From Nitrosomonadales bacterium (GTDB taxonomy: Bacteria > Pseudomonadota > Gammaproteobacteria > Burkholderiales > Gallionellaceae), in assembly GCA_016721605.1 (NCBI GenBank), contig JADKHS010000005.1, forward strand, positions 49,431-113,430: a stretch of 64,000 nt of DNA, in the 5' to 3' direction. Of the stretch, positions 14,801-23,800 are shown in pieces (the first letter of the stretch is position 1; each line of letters opens with the position of its first letter). Made by a program: the position numbers.

Positions 14801-17800
14801 CTGCGCCGCGATACTGCCCACCCCGCCCGCCAGCATAATGGGCTTGTGATAACCGCGCATCTCGCCGTTAACAGTCTCTTCAAAGGTACGAAAATAACCG
14901 GCCAGATTGGGACGGCCAAACTCATTATTGAACGCCGCACCGCCAAGTGGTCCTTCCAGCATGATCTGCAAGGCGGTAGCAATGCGTGACGGCCTGCCAT
15001 AAATCGGAGGGGCTCCCTCTCCACCCGAAATAGAGTTGGCACGAGCCTTGCCGTAAACTTCCCCCGGCTGCCCGAAGCCAGGGATATTCAAATTGGACAC
15101 AGAGAACCCGGTGAGCCCCGCCTTGGGTTTGGAACCGGAACCAGTCGCACCTTCATCGCGTATCTCGCCGCCTGCTCCGGTGGCTGCACCGGCGAAGGGC
15201 GAGATGGCCGTGGGATGGTTATGCGTTTCCACTTTCATCAGCGTGTGCGTCAGCTCATCGCTGTAGGCATAGCCGCCATCGGCGCGCGGATAGAAGCGCT
15301 CAATGCGCGCGCCTTCGATCACGGAGGAATTATCGGAATACGCAACCACCGTACCTTCTGGATGCAGCTTATGGGTATTGCGGATCATGCCGAACAGCGA
15401 GATCGCCTGCTGCTCATCGTCTATCACCCAATCCGCATTGAAAATCTTGTGGCGGCAATGTTCGGAGTTCGCCTGTGCAAACATCATTAATTCTACATCG
15501 GTAGGATTGCGCCCTATGCGACGGAAACTCTCCACCAAATAATCAATCTCATCGCTGGACAACGCCAGTCCCATCCCGATATTAGCCGCTGCCAGCGCCG
15601 CATTGCCGCCGTGCATGATGTCCACAGTAGAGAGCGGCAGTGGCTCACCGTGACGGAAAATATTTTCTGCTACACCATTGAAGCCTGTTTTGAGACTCAC
15701 CACAGGATCAAACACGGATTCTGTCATGCGGTCATGCAGTAGCGGCAGCAACGCTTTCAGTTCTGCTTGCGTCAGCGCTTTGCCATCCTTAGTCTTGACG
15801 GCGTACACAACGCCGCGCTCAATGCGCTCAACCCTATGTAAACTGCAATGCCGCGCAATATCGGTGGCCTTGGAAGACCACGGCGAGATGGTACCCAAGC
15901 GCGGCACAACCAGCAGATGTTGCAACCTATCTTTATCGTTATGTCGGCCTTTCTCCACATGATCCAAATCGAGCAATGTATCCAGCAAATTGGCTTCAGT
16001 GGCTGACAAATCTGTATTGAATGCCACGAAATACCAATGGCATGCATCTGCTATATATACATTGGGCAATGCGCTGCTGACGACAGCGCACAATTTTTCG
16101 AGACGGAAGGAAGACAGTGCAGACTTGCCGGGGGATACACGGAACATAAACAGGTTCTCAGGGGCTGTTAAAAACAGCTTGCCATTATACTATGCGGCCT
16201 CATTTCCACTCGAAGGAAAATACATTCATGCCAGCCGCACCGCGCATCCCCACCATTACACAAAAACAAGTCGCCACCTTTCTCTCCCCTCGCCCGCGTG
16301 ACAGCCATAAGGGCAAGTTTGGCACAGTGGCCGTTATAGGAGGCGCAAGCGGCATGGTCGGCGCACCGCTGCTGGCTGCGCGTGCGGCGCTCAAGTTAGG
16401 AGCAGGCTGCGTACATGTGGGCATTTTGGCGGACAACGCCCCGAGTGTTGATATATTGCAACCCGAATTAATGCTGCATAGCGCACAAACTGCATTGCGC
16501 TTGCCCAAGCTGGATGTGCTGGCCATCGGTTGCGGGTTGGGGCATGACGACGCTGCTCAGCAAATTTTGCAAGATGCGCTCAAGCTGGACACTCTGCTGG
16601 TACTGGATGCTGACGCACTTAACATTCTCTCCCTCCGCCCAGATTTGCGCACTGCATTAATTTCGCGCAAGAATGCCAGCATAATGACCCCGCATCCGGG
16701 AGAAGCAGCACACCTGCTCGGCTGCAACACTGAAGCGGTACAGGCCGCACGCTCCGAAGCCGCACAGGAACTGGCTAAACGCTTTCATAGCGCCGTAGTG
16801 CTGAAAGGTGCTCACAGCCTGTGCGTCACACGCAATGGCAAGATAGTTGTAAACAAGACCGGCAACCCCGGCATGAGCAGCCCCGGCATGGGCGATGTGT
16901 TGACTGGCATGATCGCCGCCTTTATCGCCCAAGGATTAAATGTGGATCAAGCCTTATTGTTGGCAGTGCACCTGCATGGCGCGGCAGGCGATGCGGTGGC
17001 AAAACAGAAAGTTACAATCGGTATGACAGCCACGGAAGTGACAGAATGGGCGCGCTGGTTGTTGAACCAATGGATAACACAACAGTAGTGTCCGGAAATT
17101 TAGTTGAATAAATTCAGTTTGTTGCTGCATTTCTATATGGCCATTTGCATCTACGAATTTTAAGTGGTTGATCGAGGACGACGTGAAGACTGGAACGCCA
17201 CGAGGACCATGAGACCGGCTAGAAGCAGCATACCCCACTGAGAAAGTGTAGGAACCGAAACTATATTGACAGTTAGTGGTGCAGTAGCCGCCGAAGCACT
17301 ATTGCCCGCGTTGGTTTGCAGGTTACCCGCCGGTATGGTGTTCAAGTGTGAACCAATGGCGCTGGAAGTCACTGCCACAATGATCGTGCAACCACCGGCC
17401 GGAATACTCGCACCGCTGGCATAGGTCACTGCAGTGGCTGTCATCGAGACCTGGGCATGGGTGCAACTGCCACTTGCCGCTGTCGCCAGGTTGACCGTCA
17501 CCCCAGCCGGAAGGTTGTCTACCAGATCCGCAGTCAATGTCACTGCAGAGGCGTTGCTATTACCAAGCGTAATAGTCAGGGTGGAAACGCCACCCGCGAA
17601 GACGGTCGCAGGTGAGAAGGATTTGCTCACGCTGGGCGGCTGCGTCGTGGGCGACGCAAGGTTCACCTGCAACGGCGCGTTCGTTTCCACCAGGTTGGTG
17701 CCGAACCCGGTCTGCAATTGGCCTGCCGCGATGCTGTTGGTGTATGTTCCAGCCAATGCAGAAGTCACGTTCACCGCGATCGCGCACCCCCCAGCCGGAA

Positions 17801-20800: not shown

Positions 20801-23800
20801 GGCGCAATTAGTACTGGCGTTCGACACCGAATAAATCTCGATGCCATTGGGGAAGGTGTCGGTAAAACCCACCTGGTTGATGGCGATGCTCGAGCTGTTG
20901 ATCACATCGATGGTCAACAGCGATGGCACGCCGCCGGTCACGATAACCGGATTGAATGACTTGTTGATGCTGATCGAAGCCGTCGCCGCCGCCAGGTTGG
21001 CACTCACCGCCGCCGAGTTGAATGGCCCCTCGGCGCTACTGATGCCACCAACCGGTACGGCATTACTCCACGGCCCTGTGCCGCTGGTCTTCACGTCAAA
21101 GGCGAAATCACAGCCGGAGCCAGCGGACAAGGTAGCGCCAAAAAGTTGTGCGCTGGTCGCCCCAGGATTGGCCACCAGGGTGGGCGAACCCGCGCAGGAA
21201 GTGGTGGCATTGGCCGGATTGGCGACGCTCAGGCCTGCCGAGAAATTGCTGTCGTTAATTGCCAGGCCGGTGAGTTCAGCGTTGGAACTGTTAATGGCAC
21301 GGAGGGTGACGCGCGCGCTACCACCGGAGGTAACCGAGGTGGGGCTGAAACTTTTGCTGCCGGACAGGCTGGTGGTGATGGTCAGGTTGGCCGACACATT
21401 GGCGGGAATCGTTCCGGCACTGGAAGAAAAATCGGCGGGTCTGATGGTATTCGTATACGGACCCAGCGTGGTTCCAGTCACCCGCACCGTGATTACATAC
21501 TCGGTTTGCAGGCTCGACGTCGGTCGTGCATTCACTGTGCCGCCGATCAGAATCACCTGGTCGTCACCGGGAAAGGCCTGTAGCGATCCGCCGCAAGTAT
21601 TGGTGGCCGCCGGGTTGGCCGCCAGCGTCAGGCCTGCCGGCAGGGTATCGGTGAGAGCGACCGCAGTGAGGGTGGAGGTGGTGCGGTTGCGCACGCGCAG
21701 GGTCAGCGTCGAGGTACCGCCTTGGGCAATACTGGTGGGAGAGAAGCTCTTGCCAACCGCCACCAAATCGACCGTGGTGACGTTGACCGCCGGACTCGCA
21801 TTCGGGTTGGTGACCGTAGTGCTGGCACCAGGTCCGTCGCCGTTTCCGGTGATGCTGTTCGCCGGTATCTGATTGGTGAAGATCAGGTTGGTGGTCGCCG
21901 TGCCGGGCAGACGTGCGCGGAACACGATGGTACAGACGCCGGCCGTGGAGCCAGAGCCTGCTGCCACAGTGCCACCAGTCCAGGTCAGCGCGCTGGCGCC
22001 ATCGCTGCCACCCCATGTACCGCCGCTACATCCCACCGAAGATGTCGGGTTGGCGCCATCCAGCACCATCTGGTTACCGCTGGCTGAGGGTAGGGTATCG
22101 GTGAAGCTGACATTAGTGACCGGCGAACCCGACCAGTTATTGATGGTTACCGTGAAGGTCGTCCACTGGCCCGGCGCGACTTGGTTCAAGGCCACCGTTT
22201 TGCCCACAGTCAACTGCGCATTGGCAGTCAAGTTGGCGCTGGCAGCGGGGCTGCCATGATTATCGGGGTTCTGCACCGCATTCGCCGCGATGCTGTTGGT
22301 GTGCAGGCCGTCGGTAGTCGTGGTGGCATAGGCGGTGATCGTGCAATTGCCGCCTGGCCCGGCGGTTGCGCTAGTCAGATTGATCGTCGCATCTGGCATA
22401 TCCACCGGCGCTAGGAGTGTGCCGTTGAGCGCACCGGTGCCACTACAACTTACAGCGGGATTCGCTATTGCTGCGACCGGCGAGCTGGCCGTACCCAGCA
22501 GCGTGATCGTGGTGCCGGTCAGGTTATCGTTGAAATTGTTGATGACGAGCGGATTCACCGTGCTGTTGTTGCCAACGATGATGGTCATCAACGAAGGTAG
22601 CCCCGCCGATACAGTGGTTGCATTAAAGCTCTTGGCGACGCTGATCGGAGAATTGACGATAACGCTCCGGCTGAAGCCTGCGCTGGTCAGGCCGCGTGTG
22701 TTACCGATGGCGCCTGCCGCCAATGTGTTGGCAAAAGTCTGGCTGGTGCCTGTAACCGCTGGCACGAGAACACGGGTGCTGATCGTGCAGATGCCGCTCT
22801 GGCCAATGGTACCGCCAGTCAGGGAAATGCTGCCCGCTCCCGGCGTGGCTGAAACGCTGCCGCTGACGGCGCCGGTGCCGTTGCAACTTATGCTGGCGTT
22901 GGCCGGGCTGGCCACCTCCATACCTGCCGGCAGGGTATCGGAAAAGCTGGTCAGCGGCATGGTGGAGCCCGCATTCGGATTGGTCAGTGTGATGGTGAGT
23001 GTGATCGGGACACCGGAGATGCCAGGGGAGGGGCTGAATAGCTTGCTTCCGGTGGGTGGCGATAGGGCGGTGACCACCAGTGTGGCGTTGGCAAGCGTGG
23101 TGTTGAACACTGACACAGTGTTTTCCAATGCCGTGTAACCGCTGGTCGACGCAGTCGGTGTAGCGTTGGCGGGAATCGTCGCGACATGACTGCCAGGCAC
23201 AATAGAAGTCACATTAACCTGAAAACTGCACTGACCATCGATACCGGCGACTTTGGCCGGGATCGTGCCGCCGGTCAGCACTACGCTGGAACTGCCGGGC
23301 ACGCTGCTGACACTGCTGAAGTTGCAACCGTTAACGCTGACCAAGGGGCTGGCAATGCCGATATCGGCAGGCAGCACCACTGTCACGTCGGCTGCGGTTA
23401 GTGCGATAAGGGAGTCGTTAGCGATGGTGATCGTGTACGGGACAACATCGCCTTGGTTGATGGTCGCCGGACTGAACTGGTGATTGATCGTCGTCGTCGC
23501 TGCAGCCAGTCCGGGGAAAATTGCGAGTCCGGCCATCAGGCAGAAAGCTCGCTTTAATTTCAGGATAGACAAACGCACGTACTTGGAAACCATCGTAATA
23601 ACCTTGCAGGATTAAGCCATGAGGTGAACTGCCACCCAGTGAAAAACACCAAAGAAACGGTACTCGGGACTTGGCGGGCGATTATAACACACTGTCGAAT
23701 CAGAACAAAGTTTTGTTACTCAGATTAAAATCCCATCACTCAGACTGGTTTCTGGATAAAAAAACTGGAGCATTTTATGTCACAAGGTTTATGCATATCA

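What the first reader, a model, noticed from the sequence alone, without database searches (positions are those of the whole stretch)
17160..23593. Giant IPTL-CTERM adhesin whose stalk domains keep a Lys/Asp/Asn triad that the tip domain has lost
Seen: all 14 complete non-terminal repeats have K in the first strand (e.g. VSKSF), D mid-domain (DTLP-like) and N near the end (e.g. YTNSI), and most have a Cys pair. The N-terminal domain lacks all three together (NHQF, VTVVLP, HVATI). Known: K-D-N triads form autocatalytic isopeptide bonds in CnaA/CnaB-type adhesin domains, and IPTL-CTERM is an exosortase-type signal. Inference: a >2000-aa isopeptide-stabilised stalk with a distinct tip in a Gram-negative organism. 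With the TED-like protein it suggests a Gram-positive-style covalent adhesion toolkit.
Basis: partly seen in the sequence, partly recalled or inferred. Interest (0 to 1): 0.62.

Follow-up and report, generated by a model that had tools for sequence, protein, structure and literature searches.

The report
Isopeptide-stalk surface fibril gene, DUF7933 family

Summary
The residue pattern is real. There are 15 complete domains plus one truncated domain. All 14 complete non-terminal domains carry Lys/Asp/Asn at fixed columns. The N-terminal domain has His/Val/Ala there.

Every domain belongs to Pfam DUF7933 (PF25564). That family was created in a 2025 survey (PMC12617251) as a predicted CnaA-like Lys-Asn isopeptide domain with a catalytic Asp and a disulfide. 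The published residue spacing (35 and 60) is identical to the spacing here. The bond itself remains a prediction.

The finding is not one open gene in this window. A 223-nt deletion inside a 408-nt tandem repeat splits it into ORFs of 1704 and 448 aa. A near-identical Candidatus Nitrotoga assembly carries the intact 2218-aa, 16-domain gene. The window also has five single-base indels in the neighbouring gene, so an assembly error is likely. Reads could not be checked.

The cognate sorting enzyme exists: exosortase H and its partner protein lie about 57 kb upstream on the same contig.

The triad-less cap is a conserved lineage. The loss maps to one well-supported clade of 74 homologues, while basal caps keep K/D/N.

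No link to the TED-like PEP-CTERM protein was found. The scan had already noted a similar IPTL-CTERM fibrillar adhesin in another genome.

The parts
18479..23593 (-). ORF1, 1704 aa: signal peptide, triad-less cap domain D1, stalk domains D2-D12, truncated D13, then 9 out-of-frame residues and a stop
23498..23593 (-). Sec-type signal peptide (MVSKYVRLSILKLKRAFCLMAGLAIFPGLAAA|TTT), read by eye: basic n-region, hydrophobic core, AAA cleavage motif
   Evidence: sequence reading; no signal-peptide predictor available
23048..23497 (-). D1 cap domain (aa 33-182): DUF7933 fold with H38/V72/A138 in place of K/D/N. It keeps the Cys pair C90/C122 and has an extra C-terminal beta-hairpin extension
   Evidence: 54.6 bits to PF25564; AF2 pLDDT 96.0
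18665..23047 (-). Stalk domains D2-D12 (11 complete DUF7933 domains), each with the K/D/N triad. All have the Cys pair except D5 (Y699 here, Cys in other alleles)
   Evidence: AF2 of D10 pLDDT 96.8
18509..18631 (-). D13, truncated after LVDTLP (keeps K1657 and D1692; its Asn and Cys pair lie in the missing 223 nt)
18507..18508 (-). Junction of the 223-nt deletion (TTGCCAA|GGTGGAAACG) relative to the intact 2218-aa allele; it causes the frame break
17160..18506 (-). ORF2 real part, 448 aa (NCBI-called as a separate protein, P0126): end of the D13 linker, stalk domains D14-D16, IPTL-CTERM tail. It has no signal peptide of its own
17280..18446 (-). Stalk domains D14, D15, D16, all with the K/D/N triad and the Cys pair
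17163..17258 (-). IPTL-CTERM sorting signal (SVPTLSQWGMLLLAGLMVLVAFQSSRRPRSTT): motif, transmembrane helix, basic tail
   Evidence: PF18203, 29.7 bits; TIGR04174, 30.9 bits; 37 bits
17545..18507 (-). 408-nt (136-aa) tandem repeat, 2.4 copies at 96% identity (D13-D15). Other alleles hold 1 copy (1946 aa) or 3 copies (2218 aa)

Best explanation
The locus encodes one Sec-exported fibrillar surface protein of Candidatus Nitrotoga. The protein is anchored at its C-terminus and is 2218 aa long in the intact allele. It consists only of DUF7933 Ig-like domains: a distal N-terminal cap followed by 15 stalk domains. In each stalk domain a Lys on the first strand and an Asn on a late strand are expected to form a spontaneous intramolecular isopeptide bond, catalysed by the Asp of the xxDTLP motif (CnaA-like chemistry). 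A periplasmically formed disulfide would add a second staple, giving a fibre resistant to proteases and force. The C-terminal IPTL-CTERM signal is recognised by exosortase H (XrtH), which, together with its partner membrane protein, is encoded about 57 kb upstream on the same contig. By analogy with archaeosortase A and sortases, XrtH would cleave the tail and attach the protein to the cell envelope, leaving the N-terminal cap outermost. The cap has lost the triad. Because its first strand is the free end of the molecule, no load passes through it, so clamping it gives no mechanical benefit. Whether the cap also binds a ligand is unknown. The split into two ORFs in this window is a 223-nt deletion inside a near-identical 408-nt repeat and is most likely an assembly error. 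SHOWN: family membership, triad and Cys conservation, confident Ig-like fold, IPTL-CTERM tail, XrtH and partner in the genome, co-occurrence of XrtH and IPTL-CTERM, an intact near-identical allele. INFERRED: bond formation, disulfide, XrtH processing and anchoring, adhesive or matrix role, artefactual nature of the deletion.
For: Family and triad: PF25564 scores 763.8 bits with 13 stretches in ORF1 and 261.8 bits with 3 stretches in ORF2. All 16 DUF7933 matches in the genome lie in this gene. PMC12617251 defines DUF7933 as a new CnaA-like predicted isopeptide family with K973/D1008/N1068, and 97.2% of its predicted isopeptide domains also have a disulfide. The spacing here is the same, K5/D40/N100. 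Across 120 homologues and 1580 complete domains, K, D and N are among the six most conserved columns. 95% of non-first domains have K-D-N and 97% have the Cys pair. 15 of the 21 mature lysines are triad lysines. Fold: AF2 model of D10 has pLDDT 96.8, with K on strand 2-8, D on 38-41 and N on 97-102. Foldseek lists Cna 1amx, CLIPPER 9ifr, and the BcpA and LrpA pilins among its top hits, though weakly. In extended and global hhalign alignments of a 1577-domain profile against the crystallised CLIPPER construct, K, D and N fall on its Lys715, the Asp of LNDTL, and Asn806. Sorting: the IPTL-CTERM tail passes curated cut-offs. XrtH TIGR04177 scores 196 bits (cut-off 86) and XrtH-associated NF041730 scores 190.6 bits (cut-off 35), as an overlapping gene pair at G000:C5:8409-9495. 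Among 200 sampled genomes of the order, all 9 with XrtH above cut-off also have IPTL-CTERM proteins. In G176, XrtH lies directly downstream of an IPTL-CTERM protein. Deletion: P0129 (2218 aa, GCA_016714885.1) matches ORF1 at 1693/1695 residues and ORF2 at 448/448 residues, and differs by exactly the 223 nt. The window has five single-base indels within 240 bp of the next gene, where two other assemblies agree with each other and keep the ORF intact.
Against: No DUF7933 structure is solved, and no sequence search reached any PDB isopeptide domain significantly. Foldseek matches are weak (TM 0.5-0.6, E about 1e-3) and include cohesins and BslA. The hhalign score to CLIPPER is weak (E 0.004, probability 8.6%; only the region around the Asp aligns at default settings). 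Isopeptor called only 247 of 776 AFDB DUF7933 domains. No recognised adhesive domain is present. Exosortase H has no experimental characterisation that I could find. The deletion junction is a novel sequence that a k-mer assembler would not invent, so a real deletion cannot be excluded.
Confidence: 0.7

Rival explanations
1. The 223-nt deletion is real in this strain. The gene would then be a pseudogene, or would yield a 1704-aa exported but unanchored fragment (cap plus 11.3 stalk domains) and an unexported 448-aa remnant. Recombination or slippage in the 408-nt repeat would act as an on/off or length switch for the fibre.
For: The junction TTGCCAA|GGTGGAAACG exists in neither parental repeat copy, so it should derive from reads. 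There is imperfect CCAAC / GGTGG microhomology at both ends. Repeat copy number does vary between alleles, 1 versus 3 copies. NCBI annotated two separate proteins on this contig.
Against: The same window region has five single-base indels in 240 bp of the adjacent gene that two independent assemblies lack, which marks the assembly as indel-prone. Apart from the deletion, the allele matches an intact one at all but 2 residues. Several other assemblies break exactly in this repeat, showing it is hard to assemble.
Confidence: 0.33
2. K, D and N are conserved for non-covalent reasons, such as a buried hydrogen-bond or salt-bridge network or a folding nucleus. No isopeptide forms, and the disulfide alone staples the domain.
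For: Isopeptor scored only 247 of 776 AFDB DUF7933 domains above its threshold. No experimental structure exists for this family. The cap domain folds confidently without the triad (pLDDT 96.0), so the fold does not need it.
Against: The triad has the residue types, order and spacing of the crystallographically proven CLIPPER bond. Lysine is otherwise almost absent from the protein. Once K is lost in the cap lineage, the D and N columns drift to many residues (V/S/A/I/E and A/V/N/S), as expected if the three are constrained only as a set. The whole-protein match to TIGR04226 'isopeptide-forming domain' exceeds its cut-off (44.8 versus 30 bits).
Confidence: 0.15
3. The protein is not a ligand-binding adhesin. 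It would instead be a structural surface coat or matrix scaffold (an S-layer-like or 'hair' layer) that spaces or glues Nitrotoga cells in microcolonies and flocs. This is compatible with the same chemistry and sorting.
For: No recognised adhesive domain is present; the whole protein is DUF7933. The only experimentally studied IPTL-CTERM protein found in the literature search is the S-layer protein of Methylomirabilis lanthanidiphila. The cap is neither more conserved nor more variable than the stalk domains among orthologues: 76-88% versus 54-96%.
Against: The architecture of signal peptide, distinct distal domain, long tandem stalk and anchor is that of fibrillar adhesins as described in PMC12617251. 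A 16-domain rod is unlike lattice-forming S-layer proteins. The cap fold resembles cohesins, which are protein-binding modules, but only at TM 0.5-0.6.
Confidence: 0.3
4. The adhesin and the TED-like PEP-CTERM protein at 3336-4133 form one functional 'covalent adhesion toolkit' imported from Gram-positive bacteria.
For: Both lie in the same 64-kb window. An earlier follow-up judged the small protein to have a thioester-domain fold and motifs. PMC12617251 notes TED and ester-bond domains co-occurring with isopeptide domains in some adhesins.
Against: The two use different sorting systems: PEP-CTERM with an XrtA-type exosortase on contig 24, versus IPTL-CTERM with XrtH. They lie 13 kb apart, separated by an aminotransferase, a transporter, a peroxidase, purL and nnrD. 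There is no Pfam TED match anywhere in the genome. The homologues of the adhesin listed are overwhelmingly Pseudomonadota, with a few Acidobacteriota, so there is no sign of Gram-positive origin.
Confidence: 0.07

Closest known systems
DUF7933 (Pfam PF25564), a predicted CnaA-like intramolecular isopeptide domain family (Protein Sci 2025;34:e70342, PMC12617251)
   Same: All 16 domains match above the gathering threshold. The Lys/Asp/Asn triad has identical spacing to the published reference (K973/D1008/N1068). The Cys pair matches the 97.2% disulfide co-occurrence reported. Tandem arrays occur in long proteins of Pseudomonadota.
   Different: The paper does not mention IPTL-CTERM or XrtH sorting, and it does not mention a conserved triad-less N-terminal cap lineage. 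The bond is only predicted for this family, both there and here.
CLIPPER (DUF11, PF01345) domain of the Acinetobacter silvestris fibrillar adhesin B9T28_05395, PDB 9IFR
   Same: Same Pfam clan (E-set) and the same CnaA-like bond type. Three domains here also pass the DUF11 model (74.4 bits). K, D and N align with its Lys715, the LNDTL Asp and Asn806 in extended profile alignments. Both form the stalk of a Gram-negative fibrillar adhesin.
   Different: Sequence similarity is marginal (hhalign E 0.004). Foldseek TM is only 0.56. The disulfide sits in a different place (a CTTC bulge in CLIPPER versus a C58-C84 pair here). The anchor differs (an OmpA-like domain versus IPTL-CTERM). The CLIPPER adhesin has recognisable CshA-like adhesive head domains.
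IPTL-CTERM / exosortase H (XrtH) protein-sorting system (NCBIfam TIGR04174, TIGR04177, NF041730)
   Same: The tail passes the curated cut-off. XrtH and its associated membrane protein are present as a gene pair in the same genome. XrtH and IPTL-CTERM co-occur in all 9 XrtH-positive genomes of the 200 sampled.
   Different: XrtH lies 57 kb from this substrate rather than next to it. No experimental work on XrtH was found, so cleavage and attachment chemistry are taken by analogy with archaeosortase A and sortases.
Gram-positive CnaA/CnaB isopeptide pilins and MSCRAMM stalks (Cna, BcpA, RrgB, SpaA)
   Same: They share the principle of self-generated Lys-Asn amide staples in tandem Ig-like domains. 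The fold is weakly related (1amx, 3rkp, 2x9y appear among the Foldseek hits). There is a weak whole-protein hit to TIGR04226 RrgB_K2N_iso_D2.
   Different: This protein has no LPXTG motif, no sortase and no pilin polymerisation motif. It is a single polypeptide, not a polymer. It comes from a diderm host, has an added disulfide in nearly every domain, and uses Asp rather than Glu as the catalytic acid, which is CnaA-like rather than CnaB-like.

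Membership tests
DUF7933 (PF25564) | Match to the family HMM above the gathering score (26.5 bits) | tested here: met
   763.8 bits with 13 stretches (ORF1) and 261.8 bits with 3 stretches (ORF2). Sixteen six-frame matches, each over the cut-off, including the cap at 54.6 bits.
DUF7933 (PF25564) | Lys / Asp / Asn at the family's predicted isopeptide positions (K973, D1008, N1068 in A0A023BX92; spacing 35 and 60) | tested here: met
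   K5/D40/N100 in D10 and equivalent columns in all 14 complete stalk domains. Not met in the cap D1 (H38/V72/A138).
DUF7933 (PF25564) | Co-occurring disulfide pair (97.2% of predicted isopeptide domains in the paper) | tested here: met
   Cys pair in 14 of 15 complete domains; the exception, Y699, is Cys in other alleles. Present in 97% of 1580 homologous domains. Disulfide formation itself was not tested.
CnaA-like intramolecular isopeptide domains | Ig-like beta-sandwich with Lys on the first strand, Asn on a late strand and a catalytic acid on a strand between them | tested here: met
   AF2 pLDDT 96.8; K5 lies in strand 2-8, D40 in 38-41, N100 in 97-102. Foldseek hits to 1amx and 9ifr at TM 0.56-0.58 are weak.
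CnaA-like intramolecular isopeptide domains | Lys NZ and Asn CG within bonding distance in a hydrophobic pocket with the acid adjacent | not testable with these tools
   Model coordinates are not exposed, so Isopeptor or distance measurements could not be run.
CnaA-like intramolecular isopeptide domains | The covalent bond itself (17 Da loss, cross-linked peptide, electron density) | not testable with these tools
   This needs an experiment. No solved DUF7933 structure was found.
IPTL-CTERM / XrtH substrates | C-terminal tripartite signal (IPTL-like motif, transmembrane helix, basic cluster) above the curated cut-off | tested here: met
   TIGR04174 scores 30.9 bits against a cut-off of 20.5, and 37 bits in the genome search. 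PF18203 scores 29.7 against 20.8. The sequence is VPTLSQWGMLLLAGLMVLVAFQSSRRPR.
IPTL-CTERM / XrtH substrates | Cognate exosortase H and XrtH-associated membrane protein in the same genome | tested here: met
   TIGR04177 scores 196 bits (cut-off 86) and NF041730 scores 190.6 bits (cut-off 35), at G000:C5:8409-9495. Co-occurrence was 9 of 9 in the sampled order.
IPTL-CTERM / XrtH substrates | N-terminal signal peptide for export | tested here: met
   Read from the sequence only: MVSKYVRLSILKLKRAFCLMAGLAIFPGLAAA|TTT. No predictor was available. The 448-aa ORF2 alone has none.
Fibrillar adhesins (signal peptide, adhesive head, repeat stalk, anchor) | Long tandem-repeat stalk plus a surface anchor | tested here: met
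   15 stalk domains plus IPTL-CTERM.
Fibrillar adhesins (signal peptide, adhesive head, repeat stalk, anchor) | A recognised adhesive or ligand-binding domain at the distal end | tested here: not met
   Pfam and NCBIfam find only DUF7933/DUF11-type domains. The distal domain is a triad-less DUF7933 variant with an extra hairpin. Its cohesin-like Foldseek hits are weak.
Gram-positive sortase-assembled isopeptide pilins | LPXTG sorting signal, sortase, and a match to a pilin isopeptide domain model | tested here: not met
   The C-terminus is IPTL-CTERM, not LPXTG. TIGR04226 reaches 44.8 bits only as a sum, with no single stretch passing.

The most novel reading that the evidence does not exclude
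The triad-less N-terminal cap is a functionally specialised distal module of XrtH-sorted DUF7933 fibres, not a decayed stalk domain. The K/D/N triad was lost essentially once, in the ancestor of a well-supported clade of 74 cap sequences from several proteobacterial lineages, and never regained. The disulfide, the fold and a cap-specific beta-hairpin extension stayed under selection throughout. If the loss is adaptive, for example by freeing the first strand for ligand capture or strand exchange, or by acting as a sacrificial shock-absorbing end domain, it would provide a natural on/off pair (K-D-N caps versus H/E-x-x caps) for testing what an isopeptide bond contributes at the loaded and unloaded ends of a fibre.
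Probability: 0.25. Interest if true: 0.45.

Novelty: new member of a known kind. Interest (0 to 1): 0.25.

Why it matters
The finding shows that a reader working from raw sequence can recover the isopeptide signature of a family that was formalised only in 2025. It also adds three small points to that family. First, it links DUF7933 stalks to the IPTL-CTERM / exosortase H sorting system. Second, it shows a conserved distal cap that lost the triad once and kept everything else. Third, it shows recent copy-number change of a stalk domain (14 versus 16 domains) among near-identical Nitrotoga strains. For nitrifier biology it nominates a very robust surface fibre, stapled twice per domain, as a candidate for microcolony or floc cohesion in wastewater systems. 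It does not change what is known about isopeptide chemistry or Gram-negative adhesins.

Tried and rejected
- **Sequence searches against PDB:** a 14-domain profile, the whole intact protein and single domain D5 found nothing significant. In particular they did not find 9IFR. The best hits were an S-layer protein at E 0.022 and Mfa5 at E 0.2.
- **Foldseek:** the searches gave only generic beta-sandwich similarity at TM 0.5-0.6, so the fold search does not discriminate isopeptide domains from cohesins or BslA.
- **Programmed frameshift:** rejected. The break is a 223-nt gap relative to an otherwise identical intact allele, not a slippery site.
- **Exosortase at contig 24:** PF09721 finds only the XrtA-type enzyme there. 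Treating it as the cognate enzyme would have been wrong. The divergent XrtH surfaced only through weak hits next to IPTL-CTERM genes in other genomes.
- **Third 'IPTL-CTERM' hit:** the hit on contig 15 is really a PEP-CTERM tail.
- **Unusual selection on the cap:** cap identity among orthologues (76-88%) lies within the stalk range, so there is no signal.
- **Fisher tests of K/D/N co-loss:** they give tiny p-values, but the tree shows only one or two loss events. They are not independent evidence.
- **Antisense ORFs inside the gene:** 20841-21872 and 22335-23138 have no family match.
- **Promoter and terminator scans:** counts were no higher than in shuffled sequence.
- **Literature:** searches for XrtH and for IPTL with exosortase found nothing relevant.

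Full report
**1. What is at the coordinates**

The minus strand of 17160-23593 does not carry one open frame. It carries two overlapping ORFs in different frames: 18479-23593 (1704 aa) and 17160-19250 (696 aa). Only the last 448 residues of the second ORF, from VETNAPLQ at 18506, look like protein; the rest is an out-of-frame reading of the first ORF.

A 408-nt unit is tandemly repeated at 96% identity. The first copy lacks 223 nt (223 mod 3 = 1) relative to the next two copies. The junction is TTGCCAA|GGTGGAAACG at 18508|18507. ORF1 therefore runs into nine wrong residues and a stop, and ORF2 has no signal peptide of its own.

**2.

- A self-built HMM finds 15 complete domains and one truncated domain.
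- All 14 complete non-terminal domains have Lys, Asp and Asn in the same three columns. The truncated domain keeps the Lys and Asp. The N-terminal domain has His38, Val72 and Ala138 there.
- The Cys pair is present in 14 of 15 complete domains. D5 has Tyr699 where three near-identical alleles have Cys.
- With 39% mean column identity, K5, D40 and N100 are among only nine invariant or near-invariant columns.
- In the intact allele, 15 of the 21 lysines of the mature protein are the triad lysines.

This pattern is not a chance result.

**3. What the domains are**

Pfam assigns every domain to DUF7933 (PF25564): 763.8 bits with 13 stretches, plus 261.8 bits with 3 stretches. Weaker DUF11 matches are also found. 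NCBIfam adds the DUF11-type repeat and a summed hit to the RrgB isopeptide-domain model. All 16 DUF7933 matches in the genome lie in this gene, and the cap domain also passes the cut-off at 54.6 bits.

[quoted passage not shown] The families were seeded from Isopeptor hits on AlphaFold models.

- The paper lists DUF7933 as E-set, CnaA-like, with Lys973/Asp1008/Asn1068 in its reference protein. That spacing, 35 and 60, is exactly what is seen here (K5/D40/N100).
- Its supplement reports 776 AFDB domains, of which 247 were called, and 97.2% of those also carry a disulfide. This matches the Cys pair seen here.
[quoted passage not shown] It showed the Lys715-Asn806 bond and its effect on thermal and protease stability.

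**4. Structure**

- An AF2 model of stalk domain D10, using its 13 paralogues as the alignment, is very confident (pLDDT 96.8). It is an all-beta sandwich with the Lys on the first strand, the Asp on strand 38-41 and the Asn on strand 97-102.
- Foldseek against the PDB gives only weak matches (E about 1e-3, TM 0.5-0.6). The Cna collagen-binding domain, CLIPPER 9ifr, and the BcpA and LrpA pilins appear alongside cohesins and BslA.
- Sequence searches of the PDB found nothing significant.
- I translated the published CLIPPER construct and aligned it to a 1577-domain profile. At default settings only the region around the Asp (ftDtLP against lnDtLg) aligns, with E 0.004. In extended and global modes all three triad residues fall on CLIPPER's Lys, Asp and Asn.
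- Model coordinates are not exposed, so the decisive Lys-Asn distance could not be measured.

Bond formation therefore remains inferred.

**5. Family-wide pattern and the cap**

The search for homologues returned more than 1000 hits. The 120 listed are 1000-2900-aa DUF7933 proteins from Betaproteobacteria, Gammaproteobacteria and a few Acidobacteriota, many with IPTL-CTERM tails.

- In 1580 complete domains from these proteins, K, D and N are among the six most conserved columns. 95% of non-first domains carry K-D-N and 97% carry the Cys pair.
- First domains are different: about 90 lack the triad (HVA, HSV, EVA, HSN and others), while a minority keep it.
- Aligned cap orthologues share cap-specific invariant residues and a C-terminal extension (…GY.A.EN…N.T.A.ATL.V..L..PTG). 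In the window's AF2 model (pLDDT 96.0) this extension forms extra strands.
- A maximum-likelihood tree of 94 caps, rooted on stalk domains, places the K-D-N caps basally. It places 74 triad-less caps in one clade with 98% SH-aLRT support, plus one separate pair.

The triad was therefore lost once or twice and never regained. After the loss of Lys, the Asp and Asn columns drifted to many residues, while the disulfide and the fold were kept. This argues that the three residues are constrained only as a set. Because the losses represent only one or two events, the very small Fisher p-values are not independent evidence.

The cap is neither more nor less conserved than the stalk domains among close orthologues. 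Its weak cohesin-like fold matches do not establish a binding function.

My preferred reading is mechanical. The cap's first strand is the free end of the mature protein, so no load passes through it and clamping it brings no benefit. This is inference.

**6. The frame break**

The 90%-identity cluster of this protein contains the following members:

| Protein(s) | Length (aa) | Note |
|---|---|---|
| P0128, P0129 | 2218 | intact; three copies of the 136-aa repeat |
| P0003 | 1946 | intact; one copy of the repeat |
| P0123, P0125 | 1652, 1791 | truncated at contig ends in or beside the repeat |

- P0129 comes from GCA_016714885.1. It is identical to ORF1 at 1693 of 1695 positions and to ORF2 at 448 of 448 positions.
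- At the DNA level the only difference inside the gene, apart from three substitutions, is the 223-nt gap.
- Synteny is identical: ppsA, a spermidine-synthase-like gene, a 123-aa ORF, the adhesin, nnrD, purL.
- In the adjacent spermidine-synthase-like gene the window has five single-base indels within 240 bp. Two independent assemblies lack these indels, agree with each other, and keep a 257-aa frame intact.

The window's assembly is thus indel-prone at this locus, and I judge the deletion more likely an artefact (about 2:1). A real deletion is not excluded, because the junction is a novel sequence.

More distant orthologues (P0004 and P0005, 84-87% identity) have a single copy of the repeated domain. 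The three-copy state is therefore a recent expansion.

**7. Sorting**

- The C-terminus (VPTLSQWGM, then a hydrophobic helix, then RRPR) passes the IPTL-CTERM models.
- The general exosortase model finds only an XrtA-type enzyme on contig 24.
- A survey of 200 genomes of the same order showed weak, short exosortase-like hits lying next to IPTL-CTERM genes. NCBIfam identifies one of these as exosortase H (180.9 bits).
- Searching the window's own genome with that model gives XrtH at 196 bits (cut-off 86). It overlaps by 11 nt with an 'exosortase H-associated membrane protein' (190.6 bits, cut-off 35). The pair lies at contig 5:8409-9495, about 57 kb upstream of the adhesin on the same contig.
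- In the sample, all nine other genomes with XrtH above cut-off have IPTL-CTERM proteins. Seven further genomes have single weak IPTL-like hits without XrtH above cut-off. Relatives are not independent, so this counts as co-occurrence, not as a statistical test.
- The genome has one other true IPTL-CTERM protein, a 230-aa He_PIG Ig-domain protein on contig 2. The third hit is a PEP-CTERM tail.
- I found no experimental paper on XrtH. Cleavage and attachment are assumed by analogy with archaeosortase A and sortases (my own knowledge).

**8. Surroundings and the 'toolkit' idea**

The flanking genes are housekeeping: purL, NAD(P)HX dehydratase and PEP synthase. Further out lie a peroxidase, a transporter and two-component genes.

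An earlier follow-up judged it a thioester-domain PEP-CTERM protein. Here it shows a PEP-CTERM tail but no Pfam TED match. It uses a different sorting system and lies 13 kb away behind unrelated genes, so I see no evidence that the two proteins form one system.

The adhesin's GC3 (0.71) exceeds that of its neighbours (0.49-0.60). This may reflect its Thr/Ala/Ser/Gly-rich composition or horizontal acquisition; I did not resolve which.

**9. Verdict**

The gene is not intact in this assembly, and the link to the TED-like protein is unsupported.
- The object is a new member of a known kind.
- Modest additions: the XrtH link, the single ancient loss of the triad in the cap lineage, and stalk copy-number variation.
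- An earlier report of this scan (e1-722047) described a similar IPTL-CTERM fibrillar adhesin in an Acidobacteriota genome as ordinary. I agree with that assessment for this one.

Noticed in passing
window 24149-24921 (+), spermidine-synthase-like gene next to the adhesin: Five single-base indels within 240 bp relative to two other assemblies (L015, L016). Those two agree with each other and keep a 251-257-aa ORF; here the ORF is cut to 168-199 aa. This is probably local assembly error, and a warning for any frameshift call in this window.
   Followed up: yes
window 17545-18507; proteins P0003, P0128, P0129: The 136-aa stalk domain D13 is present once in some near-identical alleles (1946 aa) and three times in others (2218 aa). 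More distant orthologues have one copy. This points to recent stalk-length expansion, or to collapse in short-read assemblies.
   Followed up: partly
window 21497-21499 (codon of Tyr699 in D5): The second Cys of the D5 disulfide pair is Tyr in this window, but Cys in P0003, P0128, P0129, P0004 and P0005. It is either a strain variant that removes one staple or a base error.
   Followed up: partly
G000:C5:8409-9495 (about 40 kb before the window start), locus L023 879-1965: Exosortase H (165 aa, with the Cys/Arg/His motifs AGCNAVE, NVLRII and FAHLYLW) forms an overlapping gene pair with the XrtH-associated membrane protein (199 aa). This is the sorting machinery for IPTL-CTERM proteins.
   Followed up: yes
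G000:C2, locus L002 889-1581: This is the second IPTL-CTERM protein of the genome: 230 aa, with two He_PIG putative Ig domains and a weak similarity to the 'midcut-by-XrtH' family.
   Followed up: partly
L018 (G030:C4) 2212-5010: A small exosortase scores best as XrtM (115.8 bits, below its cut-off of 125). It sits two genes upstream of a 480-aa protein with a sub-threshold IPTL-like tail (VPTLPEWGAILMAG...). This is possibly a sister sorting system with a related signal.
   Followed up: no
window 20612-20968 (D7) versus 17280-19414 (D11-D16): Among orthologues D7 is the most conserved domain (85-96% identity). The membrane-proximal domains and the C-terminal tail are the most variable (40-82%). 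The cap is average.
   Followed up: no
window 17160-23593: The gene has GC 0.59-0.61 and GC3 0.64-0.71, against GC3 0.49-0.60 in neighbouring genes. This is either a compositional effect of a Thr/Ala/Ser/Gly-rich protein or a sign of horizontal acquisition.
   Followed up: no
window 3336-4133 (-): The 'TED-like' protein has a clear PEP-CTERM tail (PF07589, 35.8 bits) and weak similarity to flocculation-associated PepA, but no match to Pfam TED. It is sorted by a different exosortase from the one that serves the adhesin.
   Followed up: partly
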